Below, one piece after another: positions 8,162 through 30,226 of a stretch of DNA of 51,778 bases. The DNA comes from an uncultured bacterium. GTDB taxonomy: Bacteria; Joyebacterota; Joyebacteria; Joyebacterales; Joyebacteraceae. Location: contig CAZRAD010000002.1 of assembly GCA_964597945.1 (NCBI GenBank), positions 1 through 51,778 of the forward strand, in the 5' to 3' direction. Position numbers and translations under genes: made by a program. The notes under the pieces were generated by a model. The model was not told the DNA's origin, searched no databases, and was given only the letters and a program-made list of their open reading frames with translations. Position 1 is the stretch's first letter, and every line of letters starts with the position of its first letter.

Positions 8162-11100
8162 ATGAGATCACGGACACTGTGTCTTCTGGTAGTCGCTGTC
8201 GCTTGTGTTGTGATTCCGAGCGTGGCGTCCGCCTATCTTCACACGCTGCCTGACATGGGCGGCGAAGGTGCCGCCGTGAAGGCGCCGGCACGTGGTTGGC
8301 CCGGGGGCGACTTCTTTCCGAATCACGACCCCGACTACATCATCGTCAATCTGTCCAACAACGCCTACACGGACTACACCGCGGGAGACACCCCTGTCTT
8401 CCCCGATGGATACTACCTGATGTATCCGTGCTTCAACGCGGACGGGACACGCCTTGCAGTGGTGGCGCGGACGAAGATCGACGGTGTGGGCGACCCATAC
8501 GAGATTTGGGTTTGCGACTACGACGCGAGCACGCACACGATCTCGAATCCGGTGCAGCTTACATCGACTGGAGGGACAGGAGACGTCGACTCGAACATCA
8601 TGTGCAGCTGGTCGCGTACCGACTCCGATCTCCTCCTGTTCCTTGAAGCACACGTAACGCAGGCGAATCTTCTGAAGACGTACGATTTCTCAACATCGAC
8701 ATTCGCAACGCTCTATGATCCTGCGCTCGACACCAACGGATACGATGCTACGAACCCGGGATTCTATGCGCAGGACGATACCAAGATTATCGTAGGAACG
8801 GGCTACGGTACAGGGAACGACAGAATCATCCTGTTTGATGGGACCTATCCTTCCACGACGATCAGCTCCGCCGACCAGAACCTCGATCCTTCGTCGAGCT
8901 ACGACGGTACAAGAGTGAGCTACTACTCCACGAACTCGGCGTATCCGTACCCGGCCGGCAGCATCTACTCGGCGTACTCAGGCGGCGTGTGGACAGAGAA
9001 TGTCAACGGCTGGGGGGATCCGTCGACGGGCAATGTTCCTGGACTTTGGGCTTACTACTCCGGCGAGTCAGACGATCAGATCCTGTCGCTCAGGTCAGAT
9101 CTCGGCTGGACGGCGGGGTCGCTCTCCCTGTACGCGTCTGACGGCACGCTGCTGTCCGATCTCACGGGTGACGCGGGTACCGACTTCCAGTGGATCTACG
9201 CGAACCACGGATGGAAGGGACCGGGAGGCGAGATTGTCTTCCGTGCCGAGGAATACACGCACACCGGTTACGGGAACAACCTGTTCCTCGCTCTCCCGCA
9301 TCCGAGTACGGTCTGGGTCGATGATGATTGGACAGGACCCGACAACTGCGGCGGGCACTCTTGGGGCTACGATGCGTATGCGACCATCCAGGACGGCATC
9401 GATGCCGTCAGTGGCAGCACGGTGAATGTGGCCGCAGGGACGTACCCGGAGCAGCTTGTCATCAACAAGTCTCTCAGCTTGATCGGCGCCGGCGCGACGG
9501 CGACGCTCATTGAGCCCGGAGCTTACCCTGTCATCAATGTGACTGCCAACGATGTGACGATTTCGGACCTGGCCATTGCCGATCCGTCCGAGGTGGCAGA
9601 GGGTATCCAGGTCAATTCGACTGCCAATCTGACCCTGACCCGCGTGGACTTCCCGAATATCGGCGCCGGTGCTGGTCCCAACAGCTACGGTGTGCATCTG
9701 CTCGCGGATTTCACCGGTCTGACGGTCACGGACTGTGAGTTCGCAGGCTCGGCCGCGTCCTCTGGCGTGTCCACGCGCAATATCGGCATCTTCACGCCAA
9801 ACAGTCTTGCGCTGGGCGATTTCTCGATCTCCGGGTGCACGTTCGACGAAATGTGGACGAGCATCTACCTCCGCTCGGGCATTGACGGCCTCGAGGTGAC
9901 AGGATGCACGTTCCTGCCTATCGACCCGGAAGATTGCACTGCGTGTGTCGCCGGCATCTACATCGGCGACGGCGACGATGACGATTTCGACCTGCGCAAC
10001 ATCTCCGTGACCGGCAACACGTTCACGGAATATGGGCGCGGTGTGTACGTCTGGAACTACGGTGCCAACTCGACCGTGGAGGACTTCGTCATCAGTGGCA
10101 ACACGTTCGCGAACACCGGTTGGAGCTCCGCGATCCGGTTCATCTTCGGGTTGAACGGCATGGAGGACTACTCCATAGATGGCCTCGACATCAACAACAA
10201 CACCTTCACGCAGGACTCCGATTGCGGAGGCAATGTTGCGCTGATCGACCTGCGCACGTACGACGCCACGCTGTTGACGTGCGACGTCTCCGTGACCGAC
10301 AACGTGATGACGTTCACCGGCGCCCCCTATGCCGACGCGATGTACGGCGTCCAGTTCTTCCTCGGCGGTGACGGCTTCTACAACACCACCGTGGCCCGCA
10401 ACGGCATCGATGGCGGGAGCACGGGCGGCGCGGGTACGGTGCCGGCGTCCGGCATCAGGGTCTATCACTATGCCGACGCTGGCACGTGGCCCCATACCCT
10501 GGATCTCGACATTGTCAACAACGTGATCACGGGCTTCGACCACGGCTTGAGTGTGTACGACGCGGTCGATGGGGCGTACGGCGGTCTTCCGGCCGGTACC
10601 GACGTGGCTATCAGCGGCAGCAGCATTGTCGGTGACGTCTATGCCATCAGGAACGACGACGGAGTCGGTATCGACGCCGAAGGCAACTGGTGGGGCGATG
10701 CGACGGGTCCGTACCACTCGACGAACTCGGGTGGCCTCGGCAGCGAGGTCTCGGACTACGTCGACTTCGACCCCTGGATCGGCAAGGCCGGCAGCGAGAA
10801 CATCGTCTGCGATCCCGACCCGCTGACTCTCAATATCGCCAGCGGCCCCGGGACGATCGACGTCGACTACCTGGGCGGCGGTGGCGGCATGGTCTACGGG
10901 TACTCCGTGACTGTCACCTATAACCCGGCGATCGCGACCCTGACCGGGGTCACTCAGGGAAACCTTCTCTCTGATGCCGGCGCGACCACCTTCTTCGTCT
11001 ACGGTCCTGCCGGCAGCAAGACAATCGACTGCGCGCTTCGGGGCACCGAACCCGGCGTGACCGGACCGGGCGAGCTGTTCGAGCTCGCGTTCACTGCAGC

Positions 11101-12838
11101 TGGGTCCGGTGTGAGCACGGTGAATCTCGGTCTGGTCGCGTTCCGCGACAATGCCAACAACACGCTGTACGGATTCTACGAGGACGACGGGCTCATCAAC
11201 GTCGACGTGACGGCTCCGGTCTTCACGAGCGTTGAGATCGAGAATCTCACGCTTGGTCACACCGATGAGTACGTGAAGAACGGTGACAATCTCAAGCTGT
11301 CGGCCGTAGTCGGTGATGACTACTCCTTGGTCATCGGCGATATCAAGGCCGACCTCTCGTCGCTGCTGTCGGGCGGCGGATCCGCGGTTGTGGCGGAGGA
11401 CTACACCGCGGGGGTGGCGACCTGGACCACGGCTCTCGCAGGCGTGACACTGACTGGAGACGGCCTGAAGACTGTGACGGTCACTGCGACGGACTGGCTG
11501 GGGAACGATGAGACCGGGGACGACACCATCACGGTCGACAACACGCGGCCGACGGCCATCACGGGATTCAACATGGAGCCTCGTCACGAGGGAATCGTGA
11601 TGACCTGGGACGACCCATCGGACACCGATGACAACTTCTATGGCGTGGTGGTCAGGTACAATGATTGGGACGACTATCCTGAGTACGCAACCCCCCCCCC
11701 GATTTACCCACTAGATCCGGAAACCGGGGGCGAGGGCGACCTCTACAACGACGCCGGTCTTGTGATGACCTGGGATGCCTCGAAGACGGACCGCGACATC
11801 TCGTACGCGAGCGCCTTCGTGTACGACTACGCCCTGAACTACGGTCCGGATGATCCTGGCGCTCAGGATCGCTCGACCAACTACTGGCTCGGCGATGTCG
11901 CAGCCGGTCGTGGAGTCTGGGGTTACAACGGCGAGGTCACTGCCGCCGACATCGGTAAGCTCGGCGGCAACTACGGCTCGGCGCCGCCTGTCGGCGTGCC
12001 TGGGTATTCGGAGTGCGACGTCGGTCCGACTGATGACAACACGCGCCTCGGCATTCCCGGGCCTGACAACTCCGTCGACTTCGATGATCTGATGATCTTC
12101 GCGATGAACTACGGCGTTGTCGCGCCGCGGATCGTGCCGTTCCTGGCCGAGCCGAGTGTCGGCGAGCTGGCACTGGCTCTGAACGAGGCCGGCCGCTCGA
12201 GTGATGCTGTGCTGAGGCTGGCGCTCCGTCTCGAGGGCAATGTCGGTGAGGTCAAGGGTCTCTCGACCGAACTCGAGTACGACGGTCTTGAGTTCCTCTC
12301 GGCGGGCCTGAGCGATGAAATGAACGCTCCGGTGGCCGATGTGTTCTTCTGGAGTGACGCGGCTTCCCGCAGCGCGCAGATCGATCTGGCCGTGCTTGGC
12401 ACGGACGTGACGATCGGCGGCTCGGGTGACGTTGCGGTGCTCACCTTCCAGATTACGGACGAGGCTTACACGGTCGACTTCGCGTCGGCGGTGCTCCGCG
12501 GCGCGGCCAACGACGAGCTGACGGCAGATCTCGAAGGCCTCAGCTACGATGGCGTCCCCGCGAGCTTCAAGCTTGTCCGCAATACCCCGAACCCGTTCAA
12601 CCCGGTGACAACGGTCGGTTACCACCTGCCGAGCGAGTCGCGCGTGACGATCCGCGTCTTTGACGTGACGGGTCGCGTTGTGACGACGCTGGTCGATGGC
12701 GTGGTCGAGCCCGGCCGCCACACCGTGGTGTGGAACGGAACGAACGAGTACGGCGAGTCCGTGGGCAGCGGCGTCTACTTCTGCACGATGGAGACGCCCG
12801 AGTACCGCGGTTCGCACAAGATGACACTGCTGAAGTAG
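8162..12838 (+). CDS. SP1: giant surface protein (TolB-like propeller, parallel beta-helix, cohesin-like, Ig-like, FN3-like, dockerin-like, cohesin-like, FlgD-like/T9SS-type CTD)
   Basis: Track ORF 7916-12838. ATG 8162 is preferred: GGAGGAG at 8149-8155 and signal peptide MRSRTLCLLVVAVACVVIPSVASA. PD40-like strings (FNADGTRLAVVA, SSYDGTRVSYYS). Beta-helix capped by NWWGDATGPYH. CDPDPLTL then a cohesin-like module. Dockerin-like segment at 11879-12125. CTD FKLVRNTPNPFNPVTT…SGVYFCTMET…KMTLLK. Confidence 0.85.
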   Translation: MRSRTLCLLVVAVACVVIPSVASAYLHTLPDMGGEGAAVKAPARGWPGGDFFPNHDPDYIIVNLSNNAYTDYTAGDTPVFPDGYYLMYPCFNADGTRLAVVARTKIDGVGDPYEIWVCDYDASTHTISNPVQLTSTGGTGDVDSNIMCSWSRTDSDLLLFLEAHVTQANLLKTYDFSTSTFATLYDPALDTNGYDATNPGFYAQDDTKIIVGTGYGTGNDRIILFDGTYPSTTISSADQNLDPSSSYDGTRVSYYSTNSAYPYPAGSIYSAYSGGVWTENVNGWGDPSTGNVPGLWAYYSGESDDQILSLRSDLGWTAGSLSLYASDGTLLSDLTGDAGTDFQWIYANHGWKGPGGEIVFRAEEYTHTGYGNNLFLALPHPSTVWVDDDWTGPDNCGGHSWGYDAYATIQDGIDAVSGSTVNVAAGTYPEQLVINKSLSLIGAGATATLIEPGAYPVINVTANDVTISDLAIADPSEVAEGIQVNSTANLTLTRVDFPNIGAGAGPNSYGVHLLADFTGLTVTDCEFAGSAASSGVSTRNIGIFTPNSLALGDFSISGCTFDEMWTSIYLRSGIDGLEVTGCTFLPIDPEDCTACVAGIYIGDGDDDDFDLRNISVTGNTFTEYGRGVYVWNYGANSTVEDFVISGNTFANTGWSSAIRFIFGLNGMEDYSIDGLDINNNTFTQDSDCGGNVALIDLRTYDATLLTCDVSVTDNVMTFTGAPYADAMYGVQFFLGGDGFYNTTVARNGIDGGSTGGAGTVPASGIRVYHYADAGTWPHTLDLDIVNNVITGFDHGLSVYDAVDGAYGGLPAGTDVAISGSSIVGDVYAIRNDDGVGIDAEGNWWGDATGPYHSTNSGGLGSEVSDYVDFDPWIGKAGSENIVCDPDPLTLNIASGPGTIDVDYLGGGGGMVYGYSVTVTYNPAIATLTGVTQGNLLSDAGATTFFVYGPAGSKTIDCALRGTEPGVTGPGELFELAFTAAGSGVSTVNLGLVAFRDNANNTLYGFYEDDGLINVDVTAPVFTSVEIENLTLGHTDEYVKNGDNLKLSAVVGDDYSLVIGDIKADLSSLLSGGGSAVVAEDYTAGVATWTTALAGVTLTGDGLKTVTVTATDWLGNDETGDDTITVDNTRPTAITGFNMEPRHEGIVMTWDDPSDTDDNFYGVVVRYNDWDDYPEYATPPPIYPLDPETGGEGDLYNDAGLVMTWDASKTDRDISYASAFVYDYALNYGPDDPGAQDRSTNYWLGDVAAGRGVWGYNGEVTAADIGKLGGNYGSAPPVGVPGYSECDVGPTDDNTRLGIPGPDNSVDFDDLMIFAMNYGVVAPRIVPFLAEPSVGELALALNEAGRSSDAVLRLALRLEGNVGEVKGLSTELEYDGLEFLSAGLSDEMNAPVADVFFWSDAASRSAQIDLAVLGTDVTIGGSGDVAVLTFQITDEAYTVDFASAVLRGAANDELTADLEGLSYDGVPASFKLVRNTPNPFNPVTTVGYHLPSESRVTIRVFDVTGRVVTTLVDGVVEPGRHTVVWNGTNEYGESVGSGVYFCTMETPEYRGSHKMTLLK
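11691..11700 (+). repeat. C10 homopolymer inside the SP1 coding sequence
   Basis: Ten consecutive C residues encode T-P-P-P (acc ccc ccc ccg). This is the longest homopolymer I saw in the window. Confidence 0.95.
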
Positions 12839-12977: not shown

Positions 12978-15900
12978 ATGAAGCACGCATTGCTTCTGTC
13001 TCTGGCACTGGCCGTCGTGCTCATAGCGACGCCGGTCATGGCCACCACGCACAGTGTGGACGCCGGCGGTGGCGGCGACTATCTGACGATTCAGACGGCG
13101 ATTAATGCGGCCTCGAGCGGTGATACGCTTGTCGTGGCAGCAGGCACGTATCGAGAGCAGCTCAAGATCGACAGCAAGGATCTCGACATCGTCGGCGCCG
13201 GGAGTGGCACGACGATCATCGAGGCTGTCGATCTTGTGGATAGAACCACATACACAGTCACCAAGTGGACGGCATCGACGGAGGACATCGATCCGTGTAT
13301 CGGAATCGTCGGTCCTGCGACTGTCAACATCTCCGACCTGACTGTCGACGGTCGTGATCTCGGCCCAAACCACTACTACGGCATCTACTTCTTCGATGCC
13401 GACGGCACGGTGGTCGACTGCGTGATCGAGGGCATCCTCTACGCGGCGAGTCCGAGTGCCTCCAGTGTGGTGTCGCTCGTTGCGACGCATAGCGAGACCG
13501 GTTCGACATCGGTCACGTTCGATGGCAACACGATCCCGGACTTTCAGAAGGGTGGCATCCTCGTCATGGGGACCAGCGCCCACTGCCAACTCCTGGGCAA
13601 CACCGTCATCGATATGCCCACAGTGGATCTCGCCGGCAACGGCATCCAGATCTCCTACGGCGCGACAGGCAGCACGTACCAGAACGTCGTCCAGGGCTCC
13701 GCTTACACTGGCGACGACTGGGCGGCGACCGGCATCCTTCTGTTCGAGAGCGGCAACATCACGATGGACGGGGACGAGGTCTTCAACTGCCAGAGTGGTG
13801 TGAACTACTCGGACTGGGGCTGGGTCTACCTTGCGCCAACCCAGGTCGTGTTCGATTTCAGCAATCTCAATCTCCACGACAACGAGTGGACGCTGGGCAC
13901 CCAGCTCAGTCGCGACGGCAGCGATATCGACATCGATATCATTGACTGCATCGTGACCGACAGCGCCGGCGACGGCATCGATCTCTTCGGCACAGGGATC
14001 GATCCGTGGGGCGGCTCGTACTACACCGGTTGGGACAACGGCAACCTGACTGCGAGAATCACGGGTTGCACGATCACCAACACGACCGGCATGGACGGCA
14101 TCTGGACCGGCGACAGCTCAGGCAATCTGACGAACACGTCGGACATCATCGTCGAGGACTGCCACTTCGAGAACAACGCATCGTCGGCTGTGAACCACGG
14201 TCTTCCCGAGACCATGGACGCGGACCTCAACTACTGGGGCGACCCCGCCGGTCCGACGACCGCCAAGGGCGGGACAATTGAGTCCACGATGCCGTCACCG
14301 TCGCCGTTCGGCGTCGAGGTTCCTCGTGGCAGCAACGTCGTTGAGAAGTATGCGACGTCTCGCGCCGGAGGAGGGGTCTACGGTGCCGTGAGCTACAGCC
14401 CGTGGTACGCGGCGCCTCCGGGAGTATCGCCGATGCCGATCGGTACCAACAGCTCGATACAGGCCGCGATCGACGTGGCGAGTCCCGGAGCCACGATCAG
14501 CGTGAGCGCCGGGAACTACACCGAACAGCTGCACATCACGAAGGACGATCTGGATATCGTCGGTGCGGGTGATGATGTTGTGACGATCACATCACCGGCG
14601 ACCCTTCCGCTGTTCTTCGGTACCAACTACCCGATCGTGTTCATTGACGGTGCCACGGGTGTCGACATCTCCGGCGTGACCGTCGATGGTGACGGTCAAG
14701 GCAATGCGAACTACAAGTTCGTCGGCGTCGCTTTCTGGAACGCCGGCGGTAGCCTCACTGACTCCCGCGTCACCGGGATCATGGACACGCCGTTCAGCGG
14801 CAGCCAGCACGGCGTCGCCGTCTACGCCAACAGCAACACAGGCGGGCCGCACACAGTCGCGCTCGACGGCGTCGAGATCGACGACTACCAGAAGAACGGC
14901 ACGGTCTTCTCGGGTGACGGTCTCACCATCGATCTCGATGGTGTCACGTGTACTGGTCAGGGTCCCACGGACGTGACCTGCCAGAATGGCATTCAGATCA
15001 GTGACGGTACCGGCGGAACACTCGACTCGTGCCTCGTGCAGGACATCACGTACACGGGGGAGTACTGGGGTGCCCGCGGTATCCTCCTTTATGACGCCTC
15101 TGTGGTGGACATGACTGACGTCACGGTCGAGCGCTGTCAGACGGGCGTCGACTTCTATTACACGGACGGTTCGTTCGTGAGTGGTGAGATCGTCCAGCCT
15201 TACGGCGACGCCATGTACATGGATGCTTACCCGCCGACGCTTCGCTCCGATGGCCGTGTACCCGCTTCTCCCGTCGATGGCGTCGAGGTCCTGGGAGGTC
15301 GCGAGACACAGACGATCACTGTGTCAGATAGCCGCTTCATCGGCGGGGGCGCCCTTGACAGCTGGGGTGTGAGCAGCTGGGTCGAGGGCGGAGACGTCGC
15401 GTCCTGCACGATGACCGGGTGCGAGGTCACCAACTGGGATCTTGGCGTGGTCGCCTACGAGGACGGCGGCACGTCGACGCTCACGGCCAACGAGTGCGTC
15501 ATCTTCGACAATCTGTCCTACGGCTACTACACGAACGCCGTGGGGGATCGCGCCGTCCAGAACGCCGAGTACAACTGGTGGGGCGATGCGACCGGCCCGT
15601 ACCACCCGACTCTCAACTCGGGCGGTCTTGGGAACGAGGTCTCCGACAACGTCGACTTCGATCCATGGCTGTTGGGTAACATCTACTGCGATCCGGACCC
15701 CGAGTACCTGACGGTAGCCGGCCCGACCAAGACCGTGGCCGTGAAGTACCTCGGCGGCGGTGGCGGCGCGGTGTTCGGTTACAACATCAGCATCAAGTGG
15801 GATAGCTCGGTCGTGAGCACGACCATTGGTGACGTTGTCGAGGGGAATCTCCTGTCCGACCTTGGCGGGACGTTCTTCTTCCCGGCGAACGGAACCGGCG

Positions 15901-17774: not shown

Positions 17775-17860
17775 CCCGGACGGTGTCGGGTGGGGACGCG
17801 GGGAAGAGCGGCTGGCCGGTTGCGCCAGGGGATGCGCTGGGTCGGGAGAGGAGGATGACA

Positions 17861-23600: not shown

Positions 23601-24776
23601 TGGGGCGACTACCCGTTCTACGCAACCGCGGATCCGGGCTACCCGGCGACAGAGACGGGCGGAGACGGAACCGCGTATGACGCGCTCGGCGTGTCGTCAG
23701 GTGCGACACACGCCATCGTCCCGCGTGACATCCACAACTACACGGCGTTCGTCTACGACCAGGTACTGCTCTACGGCCCGGCCGATGCGTCGGCTCAGGA
23801 CCGGGCCACCAACTACTGGCTCGGCGATGTGGCAGATGATTTTGGCAGCTGGGGCTACGACGGTCTCGTGACAGTAGACGACATCGACAAGCTCGGCGGT
23901 ACGTACGCGGTGTCCGGTCCCGGCTTGCCGGACGCAGAGTGCAACGTCGGTCCGACCGACGATTTCAGTCGCGTCGGCATCCCGCTTCCGAACGCGGGCA
24001 CCGGCCCGGTCGTGAACTTCGAAGACCTCATGATCTTCTCGATGAACTACGGGGTCGTCGCGCCGCGGATCGTACCGCTTCTGAGCGGCATGTCGGTGGG
24101 CGAACTCGCGCTGTCGATCGAGGAGATCGGTCGCACCGAGAACGGCGTGGAGCTCGCGCTGAGGCTCTCCGGCAACAGCGGTGAGGTCAAGGGCACGAGC
24201 GCCGTGCTCGAGTTCGATGGTGCGGAGTTCGTCTCGGCCCGGCTCTCGGACGAGATGTCGTCTCCGGCGGCGGACGTGTTCTTCTGGAGCGGTGAGGTCG
24301 AGGGCAGGACGCTTGTTGACCTGGCCATCCTTGGCACCGACGTGACCATCGGTGGTTCCGGCGAGCTGGCGCGAATCACGCTGACTCCTACCGCCGGCGA
24401 GTACTCGGTGTCGTTTGCCGAAGCAACGCTCCGAAACGCCACAAACGAGGACCTGACGGCGGAGCTCGAGGGTATCGAGATCATCGATGAGATCCCGACG
24501 GTCTTCCGCCTCGTGCAGAACGTGCCGAACCCGTTCAATCCCATCACGACGATTGCGTACCACGTTCCGTACGAGTCGGACGTCTCGATTCGCGTGTACG
24601 ACGTGACGGGTCGTGTTGTGCGGACGCTTGTTGACGGTGCGATTGAGCCCGGCCGTCACGCAGCTGTCTGGGATGGACGGAGCGAGCAGGGAGAGAACTG
24701 CGGCAGCGGCGTGTACTTCTGCGTGATGGAGAGCGCAGAGTATCGCGGCAGCCGAAAGATGATGCTTCTGAAGTAG
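20628..24776 (+). CDS. SP4: giant surface protein (two SWWCG jelly-roll-like modules, beta-helix, then the cohesin/Ig/FN3/dockerin-like/cohesin/CTD cassette)
   Basis: Track ORF 20592-24776. ATG 20628 with AAAGGAG at 20614-20620. Signal peptide MTRALLVFAALVLLVVPSSGS. GGSSWWCGNFDYD and GTHSWWCGDDADT start two similar modules. Beta-helix TIQEAIDVAVPGDIIDVGDGVY is capped by NWWGDASGP. CDPNPLTL then a cohesin-like module. Dockerin-like segment at 23811-24053. CTD FRLVQNVPNPFNPITT…KMMLLK. Confidence 0.9.
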   Translation: MTRALLVFAALVLLVVPSSGSHDHREMVPSWETELASRDWEVVYLDDMEDGEGGWTHADLSSPPPKFHVDTYMAYGGGSSWWCGNFDYDANGGYGNSWDQRLDLPTLDLTGMTTPVLTFVYRYDSEPGYDYTYVQANQGGTWVTLNGPLGWCGKSGGDGSWQDIGAYGFPIASYGPSCDLRFRFISDGGWSDEDGIYVTDGGAFMVDNIRVYDYPSGATIFFDDVESGGACTPSGPPPSGDYWHIIDRACPASSGTHSWWCGDDADTNLVPANLYNSLTSPPVDISGLESLYLSFQVHFAIPTVDNDSVTFEITTDGGVSWHSLGTWWGDSSSCDGWSRRWRNGMNLDPYLPGSEFQLRVIMYTTDNGCGPAAYGGAGIMVDDLKLIRTFGTPTTWYVEPGGTYETIQEAIDVAVPGDIIDVGDGVYTDRVIIDKPDLTLVAGSEPVIDLGKAAPGDPYVGSCIWVSSAGTGTVIDGFIIRHGDNGVYLGASDCVIRSCEIYENYGDGTSYWGRGTGIHCEDNAIDPLRVNIIDNDIHDNSEVGLNFVRGRGHVVSGNSIRDNGRTPLSYRSIGVAIGYADSVTIVGNEVCGHRDNPFYGRGFSVLEQAGGDGHTYVGNIVHDNEYSIIFHASGEEPSTLHGNAFYGNSVGMNNITSVTMDARHNWWGDASGPNASKRGSGDPIISGDIDYTPWIGMAGGENVTCDPNPLTLTGGTPTGTISVDYAGGASAPIKGYSIKFSWDGAVATTSPASVTEGDFSTGVSSFFYPWLSGTNEITVDCSILDGAGSSIPGTLFEIEFAGQTVDYDTCTLTLFDLDFRDVSNDPVAGIYDADGEIIVDLVGPSISGVAITNPTLPHTDDFIKNTDTAVVTAIVTDTHPLFSSLDIEADLSGFGAGTINPTTYDGTTASWTVAGVTCSPTDAAITVTVSSTDPYGNTGTPDSDDIMADNTPPGAITGLDASPAHEEVVLVWGDPTGLDTNLRGVMVRYDAWGDYPFYATADPGYPATETGGDGTAYDALGVSSGATHAIVPRDIHNYTAFVYDQVLLYGPADASAQDRATNYWLGDVADDFGSWGYDGLVTVDDIDKLGGTYAVSGPGLPDAECNVGPTDDFSRVGIPLPNAGTGPVVNFEDLMIFSMNYGVVAPRIVPLLSGMSVGELALSIEEIGRTENGVELALRLSGNSGEVKGTSAVLEFDGAEFVSARLSDEMSSPAADVFFWSGEVEGRTLVDLAILGTDVTIGGSGELARITLTPTAGEYSVSFAEATLRNATNEDLTAELEGIEIIDEIPTVFRLVQNVPNPFNPITTIAYHVPYESDVSIRVYDVTGRVVRTLVDGAIEPGRHAAVWDGRSEQGENCGSGVYFCVMESAEYRGSRKMMLLK

Positions 24777-24840: not shown

Positions 24841-25674
24841 GTGAAGCGAGCCCAGAAGCGGACACCGTGGCCACGCGCGAGAGGAGCGCTGCTTGTTGTT
24901 GCGCTCGCCCTGCTGGTCACACCCCTCGGGACGGCCGTCGCCGAGACCGCCGTCCACTTCGAGCCCTGCGGTGTGATGGTGGAGACCGGGGATACGTTCG
25001 ACATGGAGTTCCGGGTCGCTGCGAGCCCGGATTCGATCGCAAGCTTCCAGCTCTACCTCTGGTTCGATCCGGCGATCGTAGAGCTCACTGACGCGGTCGA
25101 GGGAACGCTGTACGTCGAGAGCGGCACGATGACGTGGTTCATCGCCGAGGAGGAGTATCCCGGCTTCTGGCACTTCTTCGACACAGTGTTCGGTGCCGGG
25201 ACGCATGTCCTTCCGCCGGGAGAGCTTCTCAAGCTGAGCTTCCGTGCGCTCGCACCGGGGCAGACCCCGGCGCGCATCGATACCGTCCGCATGACCGACA
25301 TCCGTCGGGACGCGCTCCCGGTCACCGGCGCGCAGGACGGGTGGATATTCGTCGACGCGGTCGGCGTGCAGGAGGCAGCGATCGTCGCTCCCTCCGTCGA
25401 CGCGATCGCGCCGAATCCATTCGTATCGGGAACGAGCATCCACTACAGCGTTCCGGCGGGGTCAGACGGCTGGCGTCTTGAGATCTACGACGTCGCGGGC
25501 AGGAAGGTGCGGGTGCTCGACGCGCCGCCAGACGCCGGCACAGCGGGAGGCACGGGGACACTGCAGTGGAACGGCAAGGCAGATTGCGGGTACGAACTCC
25601 CGTCCTCCGTCTACTTCGTCAGACTGACCGATGGACGACAGGAGACGCGCTCGCGCGTTCTGAAGATCAAGTGA
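24841..25674 (+). CDS. SP5: small surface protein, one cohesin-like module plus CTD
   Basis: GTG start after GGGGAGGA (24829-24836). Signal peptide ALLVVALALLVTPLGTAVA. Cohesin-like VHFEPCGVMVETGDTFDMEFRVAA…FQLYLWFDPAIVELTDAVEG. CTD IAPNPFVSGTSIHYSV…IYDVAGRKV…SSVYFVRL…RVLKIK. Confidence 0.8.
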   Translation: MKRAQKRTPWPRARGALLVVALALLVTPLGTAVAETAVHFEPCGVMVETGDTFDMEFRVAASPDSIASFQLYLWFDPAIVELTDAVEGTLYVESGTMTWFIAEEEYPGFWHFFDTVFGAGTHVLPPGELLKLSFRALAPGQTPARIDTVRMTDIRRDALPVTGAQDGWIFVDAVGVQEAAIVAPSVDAIAPNPFVSGTSIHYSVPAGSDGWRLEIYDVAGRKVRVLDAPPDAGTAGGTGTLQWNGKADCGYELPSSVYFVRLTDGRQETRSRVLKIK

Positions 25675-25727: not shown

Positions 25728-28190
25728 ATGAGAACTGTAATCAGGGTAGTTACCATCCTGGCGCTCCTGCTGGTCGTCGTGCCGCAGGCCTCGGCGGAGC
25801 GGGGATACGCGCAGATCAAGACCGTTCCCACGGCGAGGAGGGTTGCCGCTGGACAGGCGGCGGCCTTCGTCGTGCAGTACGACGGGTCGGACGTCACGGA
25901 GGGCCTGCGCGGGTACCACATTGAGCTCTCCTGGGATGACGCGATCGCGTTCGTCGGGGATGTCGAGGTGGATGTGGTGGAAGGGGATTTCCTCTCGAAC
26001 GTTGGTTCCACCGCGTTCTTCGCGGTCGACACGCAGCCCGGAAGCATCGTTATCGACGGCGCGATCCTGGGTGCGACCGTCGGCGCGTTCGGCATCGGCG
26101 AGCTGTTCACCATCACGTTCACCGGTCAGGACGTCGGCGACGGTGTCACGCTCGTCGAGTTTACCGATATGGTGCTGCGTGACCAGGACAACATGCCGAT
26201 CCTCTCGAGCGGGATTCCCGGCATCATCGAACTCGACAACACGCCGCCGAACGTCCCGGTCATCGACCCGGAGCCTGAGTTCACGCAGGGGACCACGAAC
26301 TACATCACGTGGTCGAACGAGAGCGCCTCGGGCGCGGCCGGCTACTGTGTCGAGGCATCCGAGACGCCGGACTTCGCGGTCATCGTGAGCACGAGCGGCT
26401 GCACGCCCTTCACGTGGCACACCTTCACGACGCTCACCGACGGACAGATCTACTACTACCGCGTGAAGTGCCGCGATGATCTGTGGAACGAGTCGGATTG
26501 GTCCGCGACGGAGTCGTCGACGCAGGACGACTCGCCGCCGGTGACGGCGGCCGGCCCGCTTCCCGCGTACGTCAACTCGGTGACGTTCAATGTTCCGTTC
26601 ACGGAGTACGACGCGACCAGCGGGACCGACTTCGTGTGGCTCTACTACCGTTTCAACGGCGGCGCATACGTGCAGTACGGCGGTGTCCATCAGACCAGTC
26701 CCATCAGCTTTACCGGCTCCGGTGAGGGTGTGTACGACTTCTACACCGTCGGGGTCGACAACGTCACCAACATCGAGGCCACGCCGCCCGTTCCGGATGC
26801 GACGGTCGAGGTCGACCTGCAGCCGCCGGACGCGGTGACGGATCTCGAGGCGCTTCCCGGTCACAACCGGATCCACCTCTCGTGGAACGCGCCCATGTTC
26901 CGCTCGGCGCCGGTTGAGGGAACGCTCATCGTTCGGAAGCGTTGGGCGATAGGGGCGTACCCTGAGTACGACGATGTCGTTCCGCAGAACGCCTACCCCG
27001 CACATCCGGCGGACGGTGTCGTCGTCGCGTTCGTCCCGGGGACAGGATTCCAGACCTACGACGATGAGTCGTTCTCGGATGCCGTCAGGAACATCTATCT
27101 GTACACGGCGTTCGCGCGCGATGAGGCCGGCAACTACTCGGCGGCCGTCGCGAGCGCTCAGGACCGCTCGACATCGTACTGGCTTGGTGATGTGGATGAG
27201 GTGACCAGTGCGTCCGGCGTCTACGACGGCTATGTGGACTACTGGGACAAGATCATTCTGTCCGACTCATACAACACCACTGACGGTGACGCGTACTACG
27301 AACCGGAGATGGACATCGGTCCCACTGATGACTGGTCTCGGTTCGGCATTCCTCTCACGGACAGTGCCATCGACTTCGAGGACCTGATGGTCGTGGCGAT
27401 GAACTACGGCCGCGTGGACCCCGCCGGCAAGGCCGTTGCCCACGTGCCTGCGGGCATGGGTTCGCGCGGCTCGTTGGAGCTCAGGCTGGATGTTGCCGGC
27501 ATCGGGGAGGAGACCGCCGTCGACGGAGATTGCGGGACGGTGTCCGGACCTTTCGAGGTGGCACTCTCGCTCTGCGGCGGCTTCGATGCCCGCGGGTTCT
27601 CGTCGATCGCGACCTTTGACGCGGATGTCCTGACAGTGCGCTCGGTCGAACCTTCAGGTGATGCAGCGTCCGGTGACGGCTTCTTCTACTGGACCGAGCG
27701 CGAACCCGGCGTCGTCCAGATCGACATCGCGGTGCTCGGAGAGGCCGCGGCGCTGACGCCGGACGAGTTTCTGGCGACGCTCACGTTCGAGATCATCGGC
27801 GCCGGCAGCACGACGGTTGAGATCGAGGCGGAGAGACTCCGGGGCGTGGCCAACGAACGGCTCGTGTGCGGCGGAGATGCTGTCGATCTCGTCGCGCCGT
27901 ATGCACCGGACAGCCGGACGGTTCTTCACCAGAACATACCGAACCCGTTCAATCCGCGGACGACGATCGCGTTCGAACTCGCAGTCCGCGGGTCGGCGAA
28001 GCTCACCGTGTTCGATGCCACCGGGCGCCGGATCACCGAGCTCATCAACGGAGAGTTCGACGCCGGACGGCGCGCCGTTGTCTGGGACGGCAGCGACGCT
28101 CGTGGTCGAGCAGTGGGCAGCGGCGTCTACTTCTACGTGCTCGAGACCGAGGGGAAACGTCACGAGCGCAAGATGGTCTTGATGCGCTAG
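25728..28190 (+). CDS. SP6: surface protein (N-terminal cohesin-like, FN3-like modules, dockerin-like, cohesin-like, CTD)
   Basis: Track ORF 25566-28190. ATG 25728 starts signal peptide MRTVIRVVTILALLLVVVPQASA. Cohesin-like GYHIELSWDDAIAFVGDVEVDVVEGDFLS. FN3-like DNTPPNVP…ITWSNE…YYYRVKCRD and PPDAVTDLEALPGHNRIHLSW. Dockerin-like segment at 27174-27410. CTD HQNIPNPFNPRTTIAFEL…KMVLMR. Confidence 0.85.
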   Translation: MRTVIRVVTILALLLVVVPQASAERGYAQIKTVPTARRVAAGQAAAFVVQYDGSDVTEGLRGYHIELSWDDAIAFVGDVEVDVVEGDFLSNVGSTAFFAVDTQPGSIVIDGAILGATVGAFGIGELFTITFTGQDVGDGVTLVEFTDMVLRDQDNMPILSSGIPGIIELDNTPPNVPVIDPEPEFTQGTTNYITWSNESASGAAGYCVEASETPDFAVIVSTSGCTPFTWHTFTTLTDGQIYYYRVKCRDDLWNESDWSATESSTQDDSPPVTAAGPLPAYVNSVTFNVPFTEYDATSGTDFVWLYYRFNGGAYVQYGGVHQTSPISFTGSGEGVYDFYTVGVDNVTNIEATPPVPDATVEVDLQPPDAVTDLEALPGHNRIHLSWNAPMFRSAPVEGTLIVRKRWAIGAYPEYDDVVPQNAYPAHPADGVVVAFVPGTGFQTYDDESFSDAVRNIYLYTAFARDEAGNYSAAVASAQDRSTSYWLGDVDEVTSASGVYDGYVDYWDKIILSDSYNTTDGDAYYEPEMDIGPTDDWSRFGIPLTDSAIDFEDLMVVAMNYGRVDPAGKAVAHVPAGMGSRGSLELRLDVAGIGEETAVDGDCGTVSGPFEVALSLCGGFDARGFSSIATFDADVLTVRSVEPSGDAASGDGFFYWTEREPGVVQIDIAVLGEAAALTPDEFLATLTFEIIGAGSTTVEIEAERLRGVANERLVCGGDAVDLVAPYAPDSRTVLHQNIPNPFNPRTTIAFELAVRGSAKLTVFDATGRRITELINGEFDAGRRAVVWDGSDARGRAVGSGVYFYVLETEGKRHERKMVLMR

Positions 28191-28418: not shown

Positions 28419-29252
28419 ATGAGGGAGATGCGCAGAGTAACGGTCTGCACGGCGCTGCGACCTCCTCTCCTCGTGGCGGTGAGCGTGCTGCTTGCCGCGG
28501 TCGCCGTCACGGCACTGTGCAGTACGGCGTACGCCACGCCGACGGTCTTCGTCCATCCGGCTGAGATGACGGTGGAGCCGGGTGAGACGTTCTCGATGAG
28601 CATACGAGTCGATGCAGGGACCGACACGGTCACCTGTTTCCTGACCGAGTTCACGTTTGACGCGGACGTCATCGAACTCACGGAAGCGTCCGAGGGGAGC
28701 CTGTTCAGCATGTGCGGATATGGGACGATGTATCACTGGGACGTGATCGAATCGGGGCAGCACTCATGTAACGATGTGACCCTCGGACATGAGTCGCACG
28801 TGCTGCCGCCGGGCGAACTCGTGAATCTCGAGTTCACCGCCGGTGAGTGTGGTGCGACATGGGTCGCGATCACGATGGTCGATCTGAGAGACATGAAGCG
28901 TGACCCGATCCTGCCCGTCAACACGGAGCGTGCGCTGGTGATGATCGAAGGGACCGGCGTGGAGGATCCGCAGCAGGAGGAGAGGGCGGCGCACGTGAGC
29001 GTCCACCCGAACCCGTGCCGCACGACCGCCACGCTGAGCTGGTCCGCACCCGCCGGCGGGAGGCGCGGGACGCTTCTTATCTACGACGTTCGCGGACGCC
29101 TTGTCTGGTACGACATGGTCGATGGCGAGTCGGGCACGACAAACTGGGACGGGCGCGGCAGGGAAGGGGAGCGTGTTCGCGCCGGAGCGTACTTCGTTGA
29201 GCTGCGATTCGGAAGCGAGAGGGTTCGGGAGAAACTGATTCTGCTGAGATAG
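28419..29252 (+). CDS. SP7: small surface protein, one cohesin-like module plus CTD
   Basis: Track ORF 28269-29252. ATG 28419 follows CAGGAGGA (28405-28412). Signal peptide LLVAVSVLLAAVAVTALCSTAYA. Cohesin-like VFVHPAEMTVEPGETFSMSIRVDAG…FTFDADVIELTEASEG. CTD VSVHPNPCRTTATLSW…IYDVRGRLV…AGAYFVEL…KLILLR. Confidence 0.8.
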   Translation: MREMRRVTVCTALRPPLLVAVSVLLAAVAVTALCSTAYATPTVFVHPAEMTVEPGETFSMSIRVDAGTDTVTCFLTEFTFDADVIELTEASEGSLFSMCGYGTMYHWDVIESGQHSCNDVTLGHESHVLPPGELVNLEFTAGECGATWVAITMVDLRDMKRDPILPVNTERALVMIEGTGVEDPQQEERAAHVSVHPNPCRTTATLSWSAPAGGRRGTLLIYDVRGRLVWYDMVDGESGTTNWDGRGREGERVRAGAYFVELRFGSERVREKLILLR

Positions 29253-29305
29253 CGATTCGGGCGGTGGTGGCCGATCCGAACGGGAAGGTCTGAAGGGAGA
29301 GGACC

Positions 29306-30226
29306 ATGAACAAGACTGCGTACATCCTGCTGACAATGGGACTCGTGATGGTGGCCGGCATAGCCGCCGCAGCGCCTCTCGTCTACCTGGATCCGGTAGC
29401 GATCGACGCCTGTGGCGAGTTCTCGGTCGATGTCGTTATCAACGATGAGGTTCTCGACCTCACCGGGTTCGATCTGCTCATCGATTTCGACGAGACCATT
29501 CTGGGCGTTGCTGATGTGACGATGGGACAGCTCCTCGATGACTATCCCGGGTCACCGTTCTTCTACTGGACCGACGTCGGGACGGTGTCGGACGCGCTGC
29601 TCATCAACGGAGCGGCTCTCGGCGGATCCATCGAGGGTCCTGGTGTTCTCGCGACCATCACCTTCGAGTGTCTCACGAATGGACTGACGGATCTCGAGTT
29701 CGAGATGGTCGAGTTCCGCGACATCGACAACCTCCCTCTTCCTGCGACGAGTCAGGACGGTGAGGTCAACGCGGATGATGGTGCTGTCGTCTACATCAGC
29801 CCTGCGTCGATGAGCGAGGCGGTCGACACCCCGTTCACGGTCGAGGTGATGATCGGCGACGGCATCGCCTCCATGGATGAACTCACACTGATCATCACGT
29901 ACGATTCGGCGATTCTGGAGTACATGACGGCGTGGGTCGGGGGTGACGTCCCCGCGGGCTCCACCTTCACGGAGAGCGGCGGAGCGGGCACGATCAACAT
30001 CGACCTCGACGTCAACGTCAGCATGTCCGGAGCCGGATCCGTGGCGGTTCTGCAGTTCAAGGGGATCTTCGAGGGGGATTCGCCGATCACGCTCGATGGC
30101 GTTGAGCTGAGCACAGATACCGGCGCGCTGATTCAGCCGTGCATCGAACATGGCACCGTTACCATCTATGGAGGCTCTCCCGTTGAGGAACTCCGATGGG
30201 GCATGATCAAGAGCCTCTATCGGTAG
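29306..30226 (+). CDS. SP8: two cohesin-like modules, no CTD, ends in a W-x-x-I-K-x-x-Y-R tail (scaffoldin/adaptor-like)
   Basis: RBS GAAGGGAGAGGA. Signal peptide MNKTAYILLTMGLVMVAGIAAA. Module 1: VYLDPVAIDACGEFSVDVVINDEVLDLTGFDLLIDFDETILGV. Module 2: VYISPASMSEAVDTPFTVEVMIGDG…LTLIITYDSAILEY. C-terminus …SPVEELRWGMIKSLYR*. Confidence 0.8.
   Translation: MNKTAYILLTMGLVMVAGIAAAAPLVYLDPVAIDACGEFSVDVVINDEVLDLTGFDLLIDFDETILGVADVTMGQLLDDYPGSPFFYWTDVGTVSDALLINGAALGGSIEGPGVLATITFECLTNGLTDLEFEMVEFRDIDNLPLPATSQDGEVNADDGAVVYISPASMSEAVDTPFTVEVMIGDGIASMDELTLIITYDSAILEYMTAWVGGDVPAGSTFTESGGAGTINIDLDVNVSMSGAGSVAVLQFKGIFEGDSPITLDGVELSTDTGALIQPCIEHGTVTIYGGSPVEELRWGMIKSLYR

What the first reader, a model, noticed from the sequence alone, without database searches (positions are those of the whole stretch)
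8162..30226. 22-kb array of eight paralogous surface proteins that combine cohesin-like and dockerin-like modules with a T9SS-type CTD: a cellulosome-style assembly outside the Firmicutes
Seen: eight consecutive same-strand genes. SP1, SP2, SP3, SP4 and SP6 end with the same module order. First comes an Ig-like module (…TLTHTNDY/FVK…). Then an FN3-like module (DNT.P.A.TGF…). Then a segment with two dockerin-like Ca-loop/helix repeats (NYWLGDV…G.V…DI.KLGG.YG … DVGPT…V.FEDLM.F.MNYG), at 11879-12125, 16776-17028, 19622-19849, 23811-24053 and 27174-27410. Then a cohesin-like sandwich (…LAL.L.E.G…L.L.GNVGEVKG.S..LE.DG.EFVSARLSDEM…). Last is the NPFNP…SGVYF…K.LLK CTD. SP1, SP2 and SP4 have a further cohesin-like module after CDP[DN]P, and SP6 has one at its N-terminus. 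Established: cohesin-dockerin pairs are the assembly modules of clostridial cellulosomes, and isolated non-cellulosomal homologues occur widely. Inference: proteins carrying both partner types could polymerise into a surface lattice or multi-protein adhesive complex anchored through the CTD.
Basis: partly seen in the sequence, partly recalled or inferred. Interest (0 to 1): 0.8.

Follow-up and report, generated by a model that had tools for sequence, protein, structure and literature searches.

The report
Dockerin–cohesin surface protein gene array
Eight neighbouring genes of an uncultured (Eisenbacteria-like) bacterium encode secreted surface proteins built from 13 cohesin modules and 5 very divergent dockerin modules. 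These are the plug-and-socket parts of clostridial cellulosomes, but here they are fused into a fixed tail next to a type-IX-secretion anchor and carry no recognisable plant-degrading enzymes.

Summary
Window 8162-30226 has eight co-directional genes with N-terminal hydrophobic leaders. It holds 13 cohesin modules, 5 dockerin-like modules and 7 T9SS-type CTDs; SP8 has none.

Cohesin identity is supported three ways. Pfam Cohesin passes its cut-off in SP1-mid, SP5 and SP8a. Of 19 members of the C-terminal module family, 11 hit Cohesin. The AF2 model of the SP1 C-terminal module matches solved cohesins.

Pfam Dockerin_1 misses the dockerin-like segment entirely. A family profile, however, hits only dockerins in the PDB (E=1.3e-5, type II X-dockerins). 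An AF2 model (pLDDT 80.6) returns 11 Foldseek hits, all dockerin chains, though their E-values are weak.

The FN3-like–dockerin–cohesin–CTD tail is a widespread, unannotated cassette. It has 1235 representative clusters and 314 hits in GTDB genomes (Eisenbacteria, Krumholzibacteriota, Gemmatimonadota). The dockerin is essentially always fused directly to a cohesin. The gene order big-SP/SP5/SP6/SP7/SP8 recurs in six related loci.

Heads are β-helix, LTD or MAM domains, not CAZymes, so "cellulosome" is not supported. A cohesin-dockerin surface assembly is plausible but untested. Cis (intramolecular) versus trans binding is unresolved. This is a new variant of a known kind.

The parts
8162..12838 (+). 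SP1 (1558 aa): leader, unassigned N-terminal region, NosD-like β-helix, cohesin, Ig-like?, FN3-like, dockerin-like, cohesin, CTD
12978..17732 (+). SP2 (1584 aa): leader, two Beta_helix regions, cohesin, Ig-like?, FN3-like, dockerin-like, cohesin, CTD
17855..20569 (+). SP3 (~902-905 aa): leader, two lamin-tail domains (LTD), Ig-like?, FN3-like, dockerin-like, cohesin, CTD
20628..24776 (+). SP4 (1382 aa): leader, InhA-like MAM, Beta_helix/NosD, cohesin, Ig-like?, FN3-like, dockerin-like, cohesin, CTD
24841..25674 (+). SP5 (277 aa): leader, single cohesin (24940-25419), CTD (about 25405-25671)
   Evidence: Pfam Cohesin 24.7 bits vs cut-off 24.1; TIGR04183 26.8 vs 23
25728..28190 (+). SP6 (820 aa): leader, N-terminal cohesin, FN3-like region, dockerin-like, cohesin, CTD
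28419..29252 (+). SP7 (277 aa): leader, single cohesin (28533-29015), CTD (about 29001-29249); paralogue of SP5
   Evidence: Pfam Cohesin 23.0 bits, just under the 24.1 cut-off; A3 profile i-E 1.1e-7; 31% identical to SP5
29306..30226 (+). SP8 (306 aa): leader, two cohesins (29372-29779, 29783-30202), no CTD; ends in a conserved tail ...RWGMIKSLYR
   Evidence: Pfam Cohesin 27.9 bits for the first module; A3 profile finds both; tail conserved in orthologues
11873..12127 (+). Dockerin-like module of SP1 (two F-hand-like repeats, both with loop insertions)
16770..17030 (+). Dockerin-like module of SP2
19616..19861 (+). Dockerin-like module of SP3
23805..24065 (+). Dockerin-like module of SP4
27168..27422 (+). 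Dockerin-like module of SP6
12128..12595 (+). C-terminal cohesin of SP1, directly after the dockerin-like module
   Evidence: AF2 pLDDT about 80-90 over this module; Foldseek hits to solved cohesins, TM 0.65-0.76 normalised to target
17031..17489 (+). C-terminal cohesin of SP2
19892..20326 (+). C-terminal cohesin of SP3
24066..24533 (+). C-terminal cohesin of SP4
27414..27947 (+). C-terminal cohesin of SP6
   Evidence: Pfam Cohesin E=0.0093
10799..11248 (+). Internal cohesin of SP1 (after CDPDP)
   Evidence: Pfam Cohesin 26.7-29.6 bits, above the 24.1 cut-off
15678..16139 (+). Internal cohesin of SP2
   Evidence: A3 profile i-E 8e-6; paralogous to the SP1 module
22731..23189 (+). Internal cohesin of SP4
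   Evidence: A3 profile i-E 2.9e-4; paralogous to the SP1 module
25809..26276 (+). N-terminal cohesin of SP6
   Evidence: A3 profile i-E 5.6e-10; BLASTP to the SP2 module E=1e-11
11537..11872 (+). FN3-like module abutting the SP1 dockerin-like module; equivalents at 16422-16769, 19292-19615, 23472-23804 and 26772-27167
   Evidence: Family profile: best hits are FN3-bearing receptors (DCC, neogenin, gp130), best E=0.0069; no Pfam hit for the window copies
12596..12835 (+). T9SS type-A-like CTD of SP1; equivalents at 17490-17729, 20327-20566, 24534-24773 and 27948-28187
   Evidence: FlgD_ig above the Pfam cut-off; TIGR04183 and matches to the CTDs of PorU and PorZ

Best explanation
What it is: a conserved gene array of an Eisenbacteria-like (Candidatus Eiseniibacteriota or related) bacterium. 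It encodes Sec-exported proteins that most likely reach the cell surface through type IX secretion.

Architecture:
- Five proteins (SP1-4, SP6) carry variable N-terminal 'heads': β-helix/NosD-like, lamin-tail or MAM-like domains.
- All five share one constant C-terminal cassette: [cohesin]–Ig-like?–FN3-like–dockerin-like–cohesin–CTD.
- The dockerin-like module is a divergent relative of type II dockerins. Like them, it sits directly behind a β-sandwich module (FN3-like here, the X-module there).
- Its first Ca-type loop holds a variable insertion. Its second holds a fixed 16-residue conserved insertion, DVGPTDDxSRxGIPxPD.
- SP5 and SP7 are minimal cohesin–CTD proteins. SP8 is a double cohesin without a CTD.

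Proposed mechanism (inferred, not shown):
1. After export, the CTD directs passage across, and attachment to, the outer membrane.
2. The FN3–dockerin dyad of one molecule then binds a cohesin. That cohesin may be the membrane-proximal one of a neighbour, an 'orphan' cohesin of SP5 or SP7 (analogous to anchoring scaffoldins, with the CTD replacing SLH), or one of the two in SP8 (analogous to an adaptor).
3. The result is a non-enzymatic, multi-protein adhesive or coat-like layer that displays the variable heads.
For: Shown here:
- Cohesin identity. Pfam passes its cut-off in SP1-mid, SP5 and SP8a. Of 19 C-terminal-module homologues, 11 hit Pfam Cohesin, best 9.2e-7. Foldseek of the SP1 model returns mostly cohesins, including the non-cellulosomal A. 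fulgidus and C. perfringens ones.
- Dockerin relationship. In profile-versus-PDB searches the top five hits are all dockerins, and the only other hit is a chance-level ribosomal protein at E=2.2. The best is the A. cellulolyticus ScaA X-Doc, aligned across both repeats, E=9.5e-5 rising to 1.3e-5 with the deeper profile. An AF2 model (pLDDT 80.6, three helices) gives 11 of 11 Foldseek hits on dockerin-containing chains, best TM 0.69 and rmsd 2.2 Å.
- Canonical loops in relatives. Some family members keep a canonical first loop such as GDINGDGSVGTID or GDVNGDGEVFTAD.
- Conserved acidic positions. Loop positions 1, 5 and 12 are 95-100% conserved in both repeats.
- Cohesin excess. The window has 13 cohesins and 5 dockerins. 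Across 73 related loci the count is 251 to 106, so orphan cohesins exist that could accept a dockerin.
- Conserved synteny. The order big-SP, SP5, SP6, SP7, SP8 recurs in six other loci at about 45-86% identity.
- CTD. It resembles the T9SS type A sorting domain and the CTDs of PorU and PorZ.
- All eight proteins have hydrophobic N-terminal leaders (read directly; no predictor was run).
Against: - No binding was tested, and no multimer or contact prediction was possible.
- Among the 175 best family members the dockerin-like module is essentially never found without a cohesin directly after it. All apparent exceptions are truncated or frameshifted. One protein repeats FN3–dockerin–cohesin four times as a unit. 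This fits a cis-locked pair at least as well as trans assembly.
- Each dockerin-bearing protein already has its own CTD, so it does not need a cohesin to stay on the cell.
- Pfam Dockerin_1 does not recognise the module. Both Ca loops are interrupted, so Ca binding and cohesin binding may both be lost.
- T9SS machinery genes were not seen in the window. The only secretion gene nearby is a type II/III-family secretin.
- SP8 has no CTD, so it is unclear whether it reaches the surface.
Confidence: 0.5

Rival explanations
1. Cis-locked stalk. The FN3-like, dockerin-like and adjacent cohesin modules form one obligate intramolecular unit, with the dockerin docked on its own cohesin. The unit serves as a rigid, perhaps Ca-stabilised, spacer or 'pre-CTD' element needed for T9SS export and for holding the head away from the membrane. 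No intermolecular cohesin-dockerin assembly occurs. The orphan cohesins bind something else or act as plain Ig-like spacers.
For: - 157 of 175 top family members have the cohesin directly after the dockerin, with a median of 237 residues to the C-terminus.
- Every shorter tail is a truncation or frameshift that still begins with cohesin sequence.
- P0032 repeats the whole FN3–dockerin–cohesin unit four times.
- Only about 15-20 residues separate the last dockerin helix from the first cohesin strand.
- 40 of 41 family members have the same CTD right behind the unit.
Against: - The stretch after NYGVV.P is variable and rich in Pro, Ala and Gly across the wider family, like a flexible linker.
- In the AF2 model of the whole cassette the dockerin region stayed at low confidence (pLDDT 43-59) beside a confident cohesin. 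That alignment was shallow (28 sequences), so this is weak evidence.
- This model does not explain the conserved extra cohesin genes SP5, SP7 and SP8 kept in synteny.
Confidence: 0.3
2. True cellulosome-like enzyme complex. The β-helix heads are polysaccharide lyases or hydrolases, and the cohesin-dockerin pairs gather them, with nearby glycosidases, on the surface to degrade polymers. This is as proposed for Cloacimonadota.
For: - Beta_helix/NosD (pectin-lyase fold) heads in SP1, SP2 and SP4, and a weak Pectinesterase hit in SP2.
- One of 41 family members hits Pect-lyase_RHGA_epim and one hits CBM_6.
- A GH5-like ORF lies upstream at 5800-7497.
- There is a precedent in PMC8542988.
Against: - No GH, PL, CE or peptidase catalytic family passes in SP1-8 or in 41 relatives.
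- The SP1 and SP2 heads have no PDB sequence relative at E<=0.01.
- The GH5-like ORF carries no dockerin or cohesin, and no such module lies outside 8162-30226.
- There is no scaffoldin with tandem cohesins plus a CBM.
- Cohesins outnumber dockerins, the reverse of cellulosomes.
Confidence: 0.08
3. The resemblance is superficial. The segments are generic Ig-like sandwiches and an unrelated helical linker, not cohesin and dockerin homologues.
For: - Pfam Dockerin_1 gives no hit at E<=10 for the five window segments, and only 3 of 81 relatives hit it at E about 0.02.
- The window's own SP1-4 C-terminal sandwiches fail Pfam Cohesin.
- Foldseek E-values for the dockerin model are weak, 0.086 or worse.
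Against: - Three independent lines point to dockerins: the profile searches (top five hits all dockerins, best E=1.3e-5) and the fold search (11 of 11 hits), plus canonical first loops in relatives.
- Cohesin is supported by above-cut-off Pfam hits, by transitive homology and by confident fold matches.
Confidence: 0.05

Closest known systems
Type II X-dockerin / type II cohesin anchoring system of clostridial cellulosomes (A. cellulolyticus ScaA XDoc–ScaB Coh, PDB 4U3S/4WI0; C. thermocellum CipA XDoc with SdbA/OlpB/Orf2p)
   Same: - The best sequence and fold matches of the dockerin-like module are these type II dockerins, including the W-x-G-D start and an extended first loop.
- A β-sandwich module sits immediately upstream of the dockerin (FN3-like here, the X-module there).
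- Small cohesin-plus-cell-anchor proteins exist (SP5 and SP7 here; SdbA-type anchoring scaffoldins there, from established knowledge).
   Different: - The anchor is a T9SS-type CTD on a presumably diderm cell, not SLH repeats on a Gram-positive wall.
- The dockerin is always fused to a cohesin in the same chain.
- The second loop has a conserved 16-residue insertion.
- No CAZyme subunits and no CBM are present.
- Pfam Dockerin_1 does not match.
Non-cellulosomal cohesin/dockerin proteins: Archaeoglobus fulgidus cohesin (PDB 2XDH); C. perfringens GH84C cohesin-FN3 (2W1N) and the toxin-complex cohesin-dockerin pairs; survey by Peer et al. 2009 (cited in PMC8542988)
   Same: - Cohesin and dockerin modules occur outside cellulosomes and outside cellulolysis.
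- These structures are among the best fold matches of the SP1 C-terminal cohesin (2w1n at rank 1; 2xdh TM 0.70).
- A. fulgidus proteins carry both module types in one chain (own knowledge).
   Different: - Different phyla and a different anchoring mode.
- Those proteins do not share the invariant FN3–dockerin–cohesin–CTD cassette or the loop insertions.
Cellulosome-like system inferred for Cloacimonadota 'Ca. Stygibacter' (Williams et al. 2021, PMC8542988)
   Same: An uncultured lineage in which cohesin and dockerin domains are combined with a T9SS-type conserved C-terminal domain for surface attachment.
   Different: - There, canonical dockerins sit at the C-termini of recognisable enzymes (GH18, GH57, S8, C25), and a 3755-aa scaffoldin has tandem cohesins and CBMs.
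- Here there are no recognisable enzymes, the dockerins are divergent, dockerin and cohesin are fused, and there is no large scaffoldin.
T9SS cargo proteins with type A CTD (TIGR04183; e.g. gingipains, PorU, PorZ)
   Same: - A C-terminal roughly 80-residue β-sandwich matches TIGR04183/FlgD_ig and the CTDs of PorU and PorZ.
- An N-terminal Sec leader is present.
- An Ig-like module sits directly before the CTD.
   Different: - The host is not Bacteroidota.
- T9SS machinery was not observed in the window.
- The pre-CTD module is a cohesin.

Membership tests
Cohesin (Pfam PF00963) | Sequence match to the family HMM at or above the curated cut-off (24.1 bits) | tested here: met
   SP1 internal 26.7-29.6 bits, SP5 24.7, SP8a 27.9-35.5. 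SP7 reaches 23.0 and SP6 C-terminal 16.6, both below cut-off. SP1-4 C-terminal copies give no direct hit, but 11 of 19 of their homologues hit Cohesin, best 9.2e-7.
Cohesin (Pfam PF00963) | Nine-stranded jelly-roll β-sandwich fold | tested here: met
   In the AF2 model of the SP1 C-terminus this module has pLDDT about 80-90. Foldseek hits: 5nrk_A, 1g1k_A, 2xdh and 2jh2 at target-normalised TM 0.66-0.76, rmsd about 3 Å.
Cohesin (Pfam PF00963) | Binds a dockerin | not testable with these tools
   No multimer prediction, model coordinates or experiment were available.
Dockerin (Pfam PF00404 Dockerin_1) | Sequence match to the family HMM | tested here: not met
   No hit at E<=10 for the five window segments. 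Only 3 of 81 family members hit, at E about 0.02.
Dockerin (fold/superfamily level) | Duplicated F-hand: two loop-helix repeats forming a small three-helix domain, detectable by remote homology to solved dockerins | tested here: met
   In the profile-versus-PDB search the top five hits are all dockerins (E=1.3e-5, 3.1e-5, 1.5e-4, 0.014, 0.95); the only other hit is a chance-level ribosomal protein at E=2.2. The AF2 model has pLDDT 80.6 and helices at 28-37, 49-52 and 74-82. All 11 Foldseek hits are dockerin chains, although E>=0.086.
Dockerin (fold/superfamily level) | Ca-coordinating residues at loop positions 1, 3, 5, 9 and 12 of both repeats | tested here: inconclusive
   Positions 1, 5 and 12 are D or N in 95-100% of 81 sequences in both repeats. 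Position 3 is lost and both loops are interrupted: loop 1 by a variable insertion of 3-21 residues, loop 2 by a fixed 16-residue one. A minority of relatives keep a canonical loop 1.
Cellulosome | Dockerin-bearing catalytic subunits (CAZymes) | tested here: not met
   No GH, PL or CE catalytic family in SP1-8 or in 41 family members. Heads are Beta_helix/NosD, LTD and MAM-like.
Cellulosome | Non-catalytic scaffoldin with tandem cohesins and a CBM | tested here: not met
   The nearest candidate is SP8, with two cohesins and no CBM.
T9SS cargo (type A CTD, TIGR04183) | C-terminal sorting domain matching the model at its cut-off (23 bits) | tested here: met
   SP3 32.4, SP6 27.2, SP5 26.8. SP1, SP2, SP4 and SP7 reach 20-21.8, below cut-off, but FlgD_ig passes the Pfam cut-off in SP1-4 and SP6. 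SP8 has none.
T9SS cargo (type A CTD, TIGR04183) | T9SS machinery (SprA, PorV, PorU and others) encoded in the genome | not testable with these tools
   Only a 52-kb window is available. None was seen among the flanking genes scanned.

The most novel reading that the evidence does not exclude
The invariant FN3–dockerin–cohesin–CTD cassette is a self-polymerising unit. Each outer-membrane-anchored molecule would plug its dockerin into the membrane-proximal cohesin of a neighbour, with SP5 and SP7 as extra anchors and SP8 as a cross-linker. That would build a cohesin-dockerin-based surface lattice, an S-layer analogue, that displays variable β-helix heads. It would be a previously unrecognised cell-envelope architecture shared by Eisenbacteria, Krumholzibacteriota and Gemmatimonadota, unrelated to polysaccharide degradation.
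Probability: 0.25. Interest if true: 0.8.

Novelty: new variant of a known kind. Interest (0 to 1): 0.6.

Why it matters
- Cohesin-dockerin pairing is one of the strongest known protein-protein interactions and is a workhorse of synthetic biology. It is studied almost entirely in Firmicutes cellulosomes.
- This locus exposes a large dockerin subfamily: at least 1235 clusters at 50% identity and hundreds of MAG species. Pfam does not recognise it.
- The subfamily is always fused to a cohesin and a T9SS anchor, and it is attached to non-enzymatic heads.
- If the modules bind in trans, uncultured lineages of the Eisenbacteria/Krumholzibacteriota/Gemmatimonadota group build their surface coats or adhesive layers with cellulosome parts. 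That would also supply new orthogonal cohesin-dockerin pairs.
- If they bind in cis, it is a natural example of a self-docked cohesin-dockerin used as a structural stalk.
- Either way, the genes annotated 'hypothetical protein / FlgD Ig-like domain' in these MAGs gain an interpretable architecture.

Tried and rejected
- **Pfam Dockerin_1 on the five segments (E<=10) and on 81 relatives.** Essentially negative. The relationship only appears with family profiles and fold search.
- **Pfam on the window's SP1-4 C-terminal sandwiches.** Negative; resolved through homologues and the model.
- **A3 profile (C-terminal cohesins) against PDB sequences.** Nothing significant; a cohesin appears only at E=0.92.
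- **First AF2 model of the FN3-to-CTD region with 28 sequences.** FN3 and dockerin came out at low confidence. Coordinates and PAE are not returned, so cis packing could not be read.
- **Pfam on the Ig-like and FN3-like stretches and on the SP1 N-terminus.** No hits.
- **phmmer of the SP1 and SP2 heads against the PDB.** No hits.
- **Regex scan for canonical dockerin repeats in the window and 73 related loci.** None found.
- **Apparent 'dockerin without cohesin' family members.** All proved to be truncated or frameshifted.
- **Literature searches** for Eisenbacteria with dockerin, Krumholzibacteri* with cohesin, and Eisenbacteria with type IX secretion. No papers. Peer et al. 2009 is not held.
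- **Jackhmmer on the 13 modules** links them all, but the database is tiny, so I rely instead on the non-circular A3-profile scan.
- **Covariation/DCA between dockerin and cohesin.** Considered but not run: about 175 sequences are too few, and it cannot separate cis contacts from homotypic trans contacts.

Full report
**1. The observation**

The window (52 kb, 60-67% G+C) has eight co-directional + strand ORFs between 8162 and 30226, separated by 53-228 nt. The same genes are called on 22 public metagenome contigs of up to 122 kb, with matching lengths, so the locus is real and recurs.

All eight products start with a basic-then-hydrophobic leader. I read this directly; no signal-peptide predictor was run.

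BLASTP confirms paralogy:
- SP1, SP2 and SP4 are 50-53% identical over about 750 C-terminal residues.
- SP3 joins them over about 550 residues, and SP6 at 34-36% over about 467.
- SP5 and SP7 are 31% identical over their full length.
- SP8 is linked to the others only through its cohesin modules.

The five quoted 'dockerin-like' coordinates are in frame and read as described.

**2. The β-sandwiches are cohesins**

- Pfam Cohesin passes its gathering cut-off in the SP1 internal module, SP5 and the first SP8 module. It is just below cut-off in SP7.
- The C-terminal modules of SP1-4 do not hit Pfam themselves. But 11 of 19 members of that module family do, best E=9.2e-7.
- A profile built only from C-terminal modules (A3) finds every other module in the window (i-E 2.8e-11 to 1.2e-3) and nothing outside 8162-30226. 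That makes 13 modules in all.
- In an AF2 model of the SP1 C-terminus this module has pLDDT about 80-90. Foldseek returns mostly solved cohesins of types I and II and the non-cellulosomal ones of A. fulgidus and C. perfringens. Target-normalised TM is 0.6-0.76 and rmsd about 3 Å.

**3. The Ca-loop/helix segment is a divergent dockerin**

Dockerin_1 gives nothing at E<=10 for the window segments, and it hits only 3 of 81 relatives at E about 0.02.

Three independent lines nevertheless converge on dockerin:
- **Profile search.** A 17-sequence profile and then an 81-sequence profile were searched against all PDB sequences. In each search the top five hits were all dockerins. The best is the type II X-dockerin of A. 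cellulolyticus ScaA (4WI0/4U3S), aligned across both repeats, with E=9.5e-5 and then 1.3e-5.
- **Fold search.** An AF2 model of the 93-residue segment (81-sequence alignment; pLDDT 80.6, pTM 0.72) has the three helices expected of a dockerin. All 11 Foldseek matches are dockerin-containing chains. The best is 2y3n_B, TM 0.69, rmsd 2.2 Å, probability 0.96. E-values are weak (>=0.086), as expected for such a small domain.
- **Canonical relatives.** Some relatives keep a textbook first loop, GDINGDGSVGTID or GDVNGDGEVFTAD.

In the family, the acidic positions 1, 5 and 12 of both loops are 95-100% conserved. Loop 1 carries an insertion of variable length (3, the canonical spacing, up to 21 residues). 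Loop 2 carries a fixed, conserved 16-residue insertion, DVGPTDDxSRxGIPxPD. Whether Ca binding survives is therefore open.

The module directly upstream gives weak profile hits to FN3-bearing receptors (DCC, neogenin, gp130; best E=0.0069). It abuts the dockerin much as an X-module does in type II X-Doc dyads. The 'Ig-like' module remains unconfirmed.

**4. The tails**

FlgD_ig passes the Pfam cut-off in SP1-4 and SP6. TIGR04183 (T9SS type A sorting domain) passes its cut-off in SP3, SP5 and SP6. The tails also align to the CTDs of PorU and PorZ.

SP8 has no CTD. It ends in ...PVEELRWGMIKSLYR, a tail conserved in its orthologues.

**5. The cassette is widespread and the dockerin is always fused to a cohesin**

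- The word-indexed search found only 31 relatives, named Candidatus Eisenbacteria, TA06 or 'bacterium'.
- An exhaustive HMM search of 1.84 billion cluster representatives with the dockerin profile found 1235 clusters at E<=1e-3, of which 749 are at <=1e-10.
- In the 175 best sequences, 157 have an A3-type cohesin immediately after the dockerin. The median distance to the C-terminus is 237 residues, which is a cohesin plus a CTD.
- Every shorter tail is a truncated or frameshifted sequence that still begins with cohesin sequence.
- One protein (P0032) repeats FN3–dockerin–cohesin four times in tandem.
- In GTDB species genomes there are 314 hits. They lie in MAGs labelled Candidatus Eisenbacteria, Krumholzibacteriota/-ia, Gemmatimonadota, 'Fibrobacteraceae' and unclassified, often several per genome.
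- Forty of 41 full-length members have the FlgD_ig CTD. Their heads are mainly Beta_helix (13) and NosD (5), plus assorted adhesin-like or binding domains. There are no glycoside hydrolases, lyase catalytic families or peptidases.

**6. Locus conservation**

The module order [big protein ...dockerin-cohesin] – [cohesin] – [cohesin...dockerin-cohesin] – [cohesin] – [cohesin-cohesin] corresponds to SPx–SP5–SP6–SP7–SP8. It recurs in L035, L043, L008, L027, L023 (Candidatus Effluviviaceae) and L029, at about 45-86% identity. Across the 73 related loci there are 251 cohesins to 106 dockerins.

**7. Interpretation**

What is solid:
- This is a family of secreted, CTD-bearing surface proteins from an uncultured, non-Firmicutes lineage (Eisenbacteria and relatives).
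- Their constant C-terminal cassette is made of genuine cohesins and a divergent dockerin of the type II kind.

What is inferred: the dockerin binds cohesins and so assembles a multi-protein surface layer. SP5 and SP7 (cohesin-CTD) would play the part of anchoring scaffoldins, and SP8 (double cohesin) that of an adaptor. The orphan cohesins and the conserved synteny favour this reading.

The invariant dockerin-cohesin fusion, the tandemly repeated unit in P0032 and the fact that each protein has its own anchor favour the rival. In that rival the pair is docked in cis and acts as a structural stalk or pre-CTD element. I could not discriminate between them. I put trans assembly at about 0.5 and cis at about 0.3.

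A true enzyme-organising cellulosome is unlikely (about 0.08):
- There are no catalytic families in SP1-8 or in relatives.
- The heads have no PDB sequence relatives.
- The upstream GH5-like ORF carries no assembly module.

**8. Comparison and novelty**

Cohesin and dockerin modules outside cellulosomes and outside Firmicutes are known (Peer et al. 2009, cited in PMC8542988; the A. fulgidus and C. perfringens structures appear among my fold hits). A cohesin/dockerin system with a T9SS-type CTD has been inferred for Cloacimonadota (PMC8542988). So 'a cellulosome-style assembly outside the Firmicutes' is not new in itself.

What appears undescribed is this specific cassette:
- a Pfam-invisible dockerin subfamily with a conserved loop-2 insertion;
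- obligate fusion FN3–dockerin–cohesin–CTD;
- non-enzymatic heads;
- a conserved multi-gene array.

No paper in the searchable library pairs Eisenbacteria with dockerin, or Krumholzibacteriota with cohesin.

Verdict: a new variant of a known kind, of moderate-to-high interest (0.6).

Noticed in passing
window 30185-30226 (end of SP8) and 5755-5796 (end of ORF 5185-5796); also L012, L023, L027, L029, L032, L035, L036, L043, L069: A conserved extreme C-terminal tail, [ST]-W-[GST]-x-[IM]-K-x-x-[YF]-R followed by the stop codon and often preceded by PVE. It ends SP8 and its orthologues. It also ends unrelated ORFs of these MAGs, including the 203-aa ORF just upstream of the GH5-like gene in the window. 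It has no transmembrane segment and matches no NCBIfam sorting-signal model. It may be an undescribed sorting or anchoring signal of this lineage.
   Followed up: partly
P0032 (2234 aa): A family member with four tandem FN3–dockerin–cohesin units spaced about 420 residues apart, each dockerin followed by its own cohesin. Its first loops are closer to the canonical form (GDFAGFGDGVVDSTD).
   Followed up: partly
window 2796-4427 (+), with unassigned ORFs at 1171-2799, 4469-5098 and 5185-5796: A TPR-containing type II/III-family secretin (PF00263, E=4e-40) lies just upstream of the array, among ORFs with no family hits. It is not a T9SS component, and any relation to the array is unknown.
   Followed up: no
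window 5800-7497 (+): An ORF with a marginal GH5 'Cellulase' match (25.7 bits against a 23.5 cut-off, covering only half the model) sits immediately upstream of SP1. It has no cohesin, dockerin or CTD.
   Followed up: partly
window 35065-36378 (-) and 32868-33914 (-): Further probable surface proteins lie downstream on the other strand. One is a β-propeller (Lactonase-like) protein with a FlgD_ig/Por_Secre_tail CTD; the other has a weak PKD hit. The same CTD therefore serves other cargo in this genome.
   Followed up: no
window 8162-9400 (SP1 N-terminal ~410 aa): A large N-terminal region of SP1 has no Pfam, NCBIfam or PDB sequence match. It is rich in repeated Y/D/G/T motifs that suggest a β-propeller.
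   Followed up: partly
window 44117-51647 (+): An XdhC / FAD_binding_5 / CO-dehydrogenase-flavoprotein cluster (molybdenum hydroxylase family) sits at the right end of the window. It is ordinary metabolism, unrelated to the finding.
   Followed up: no
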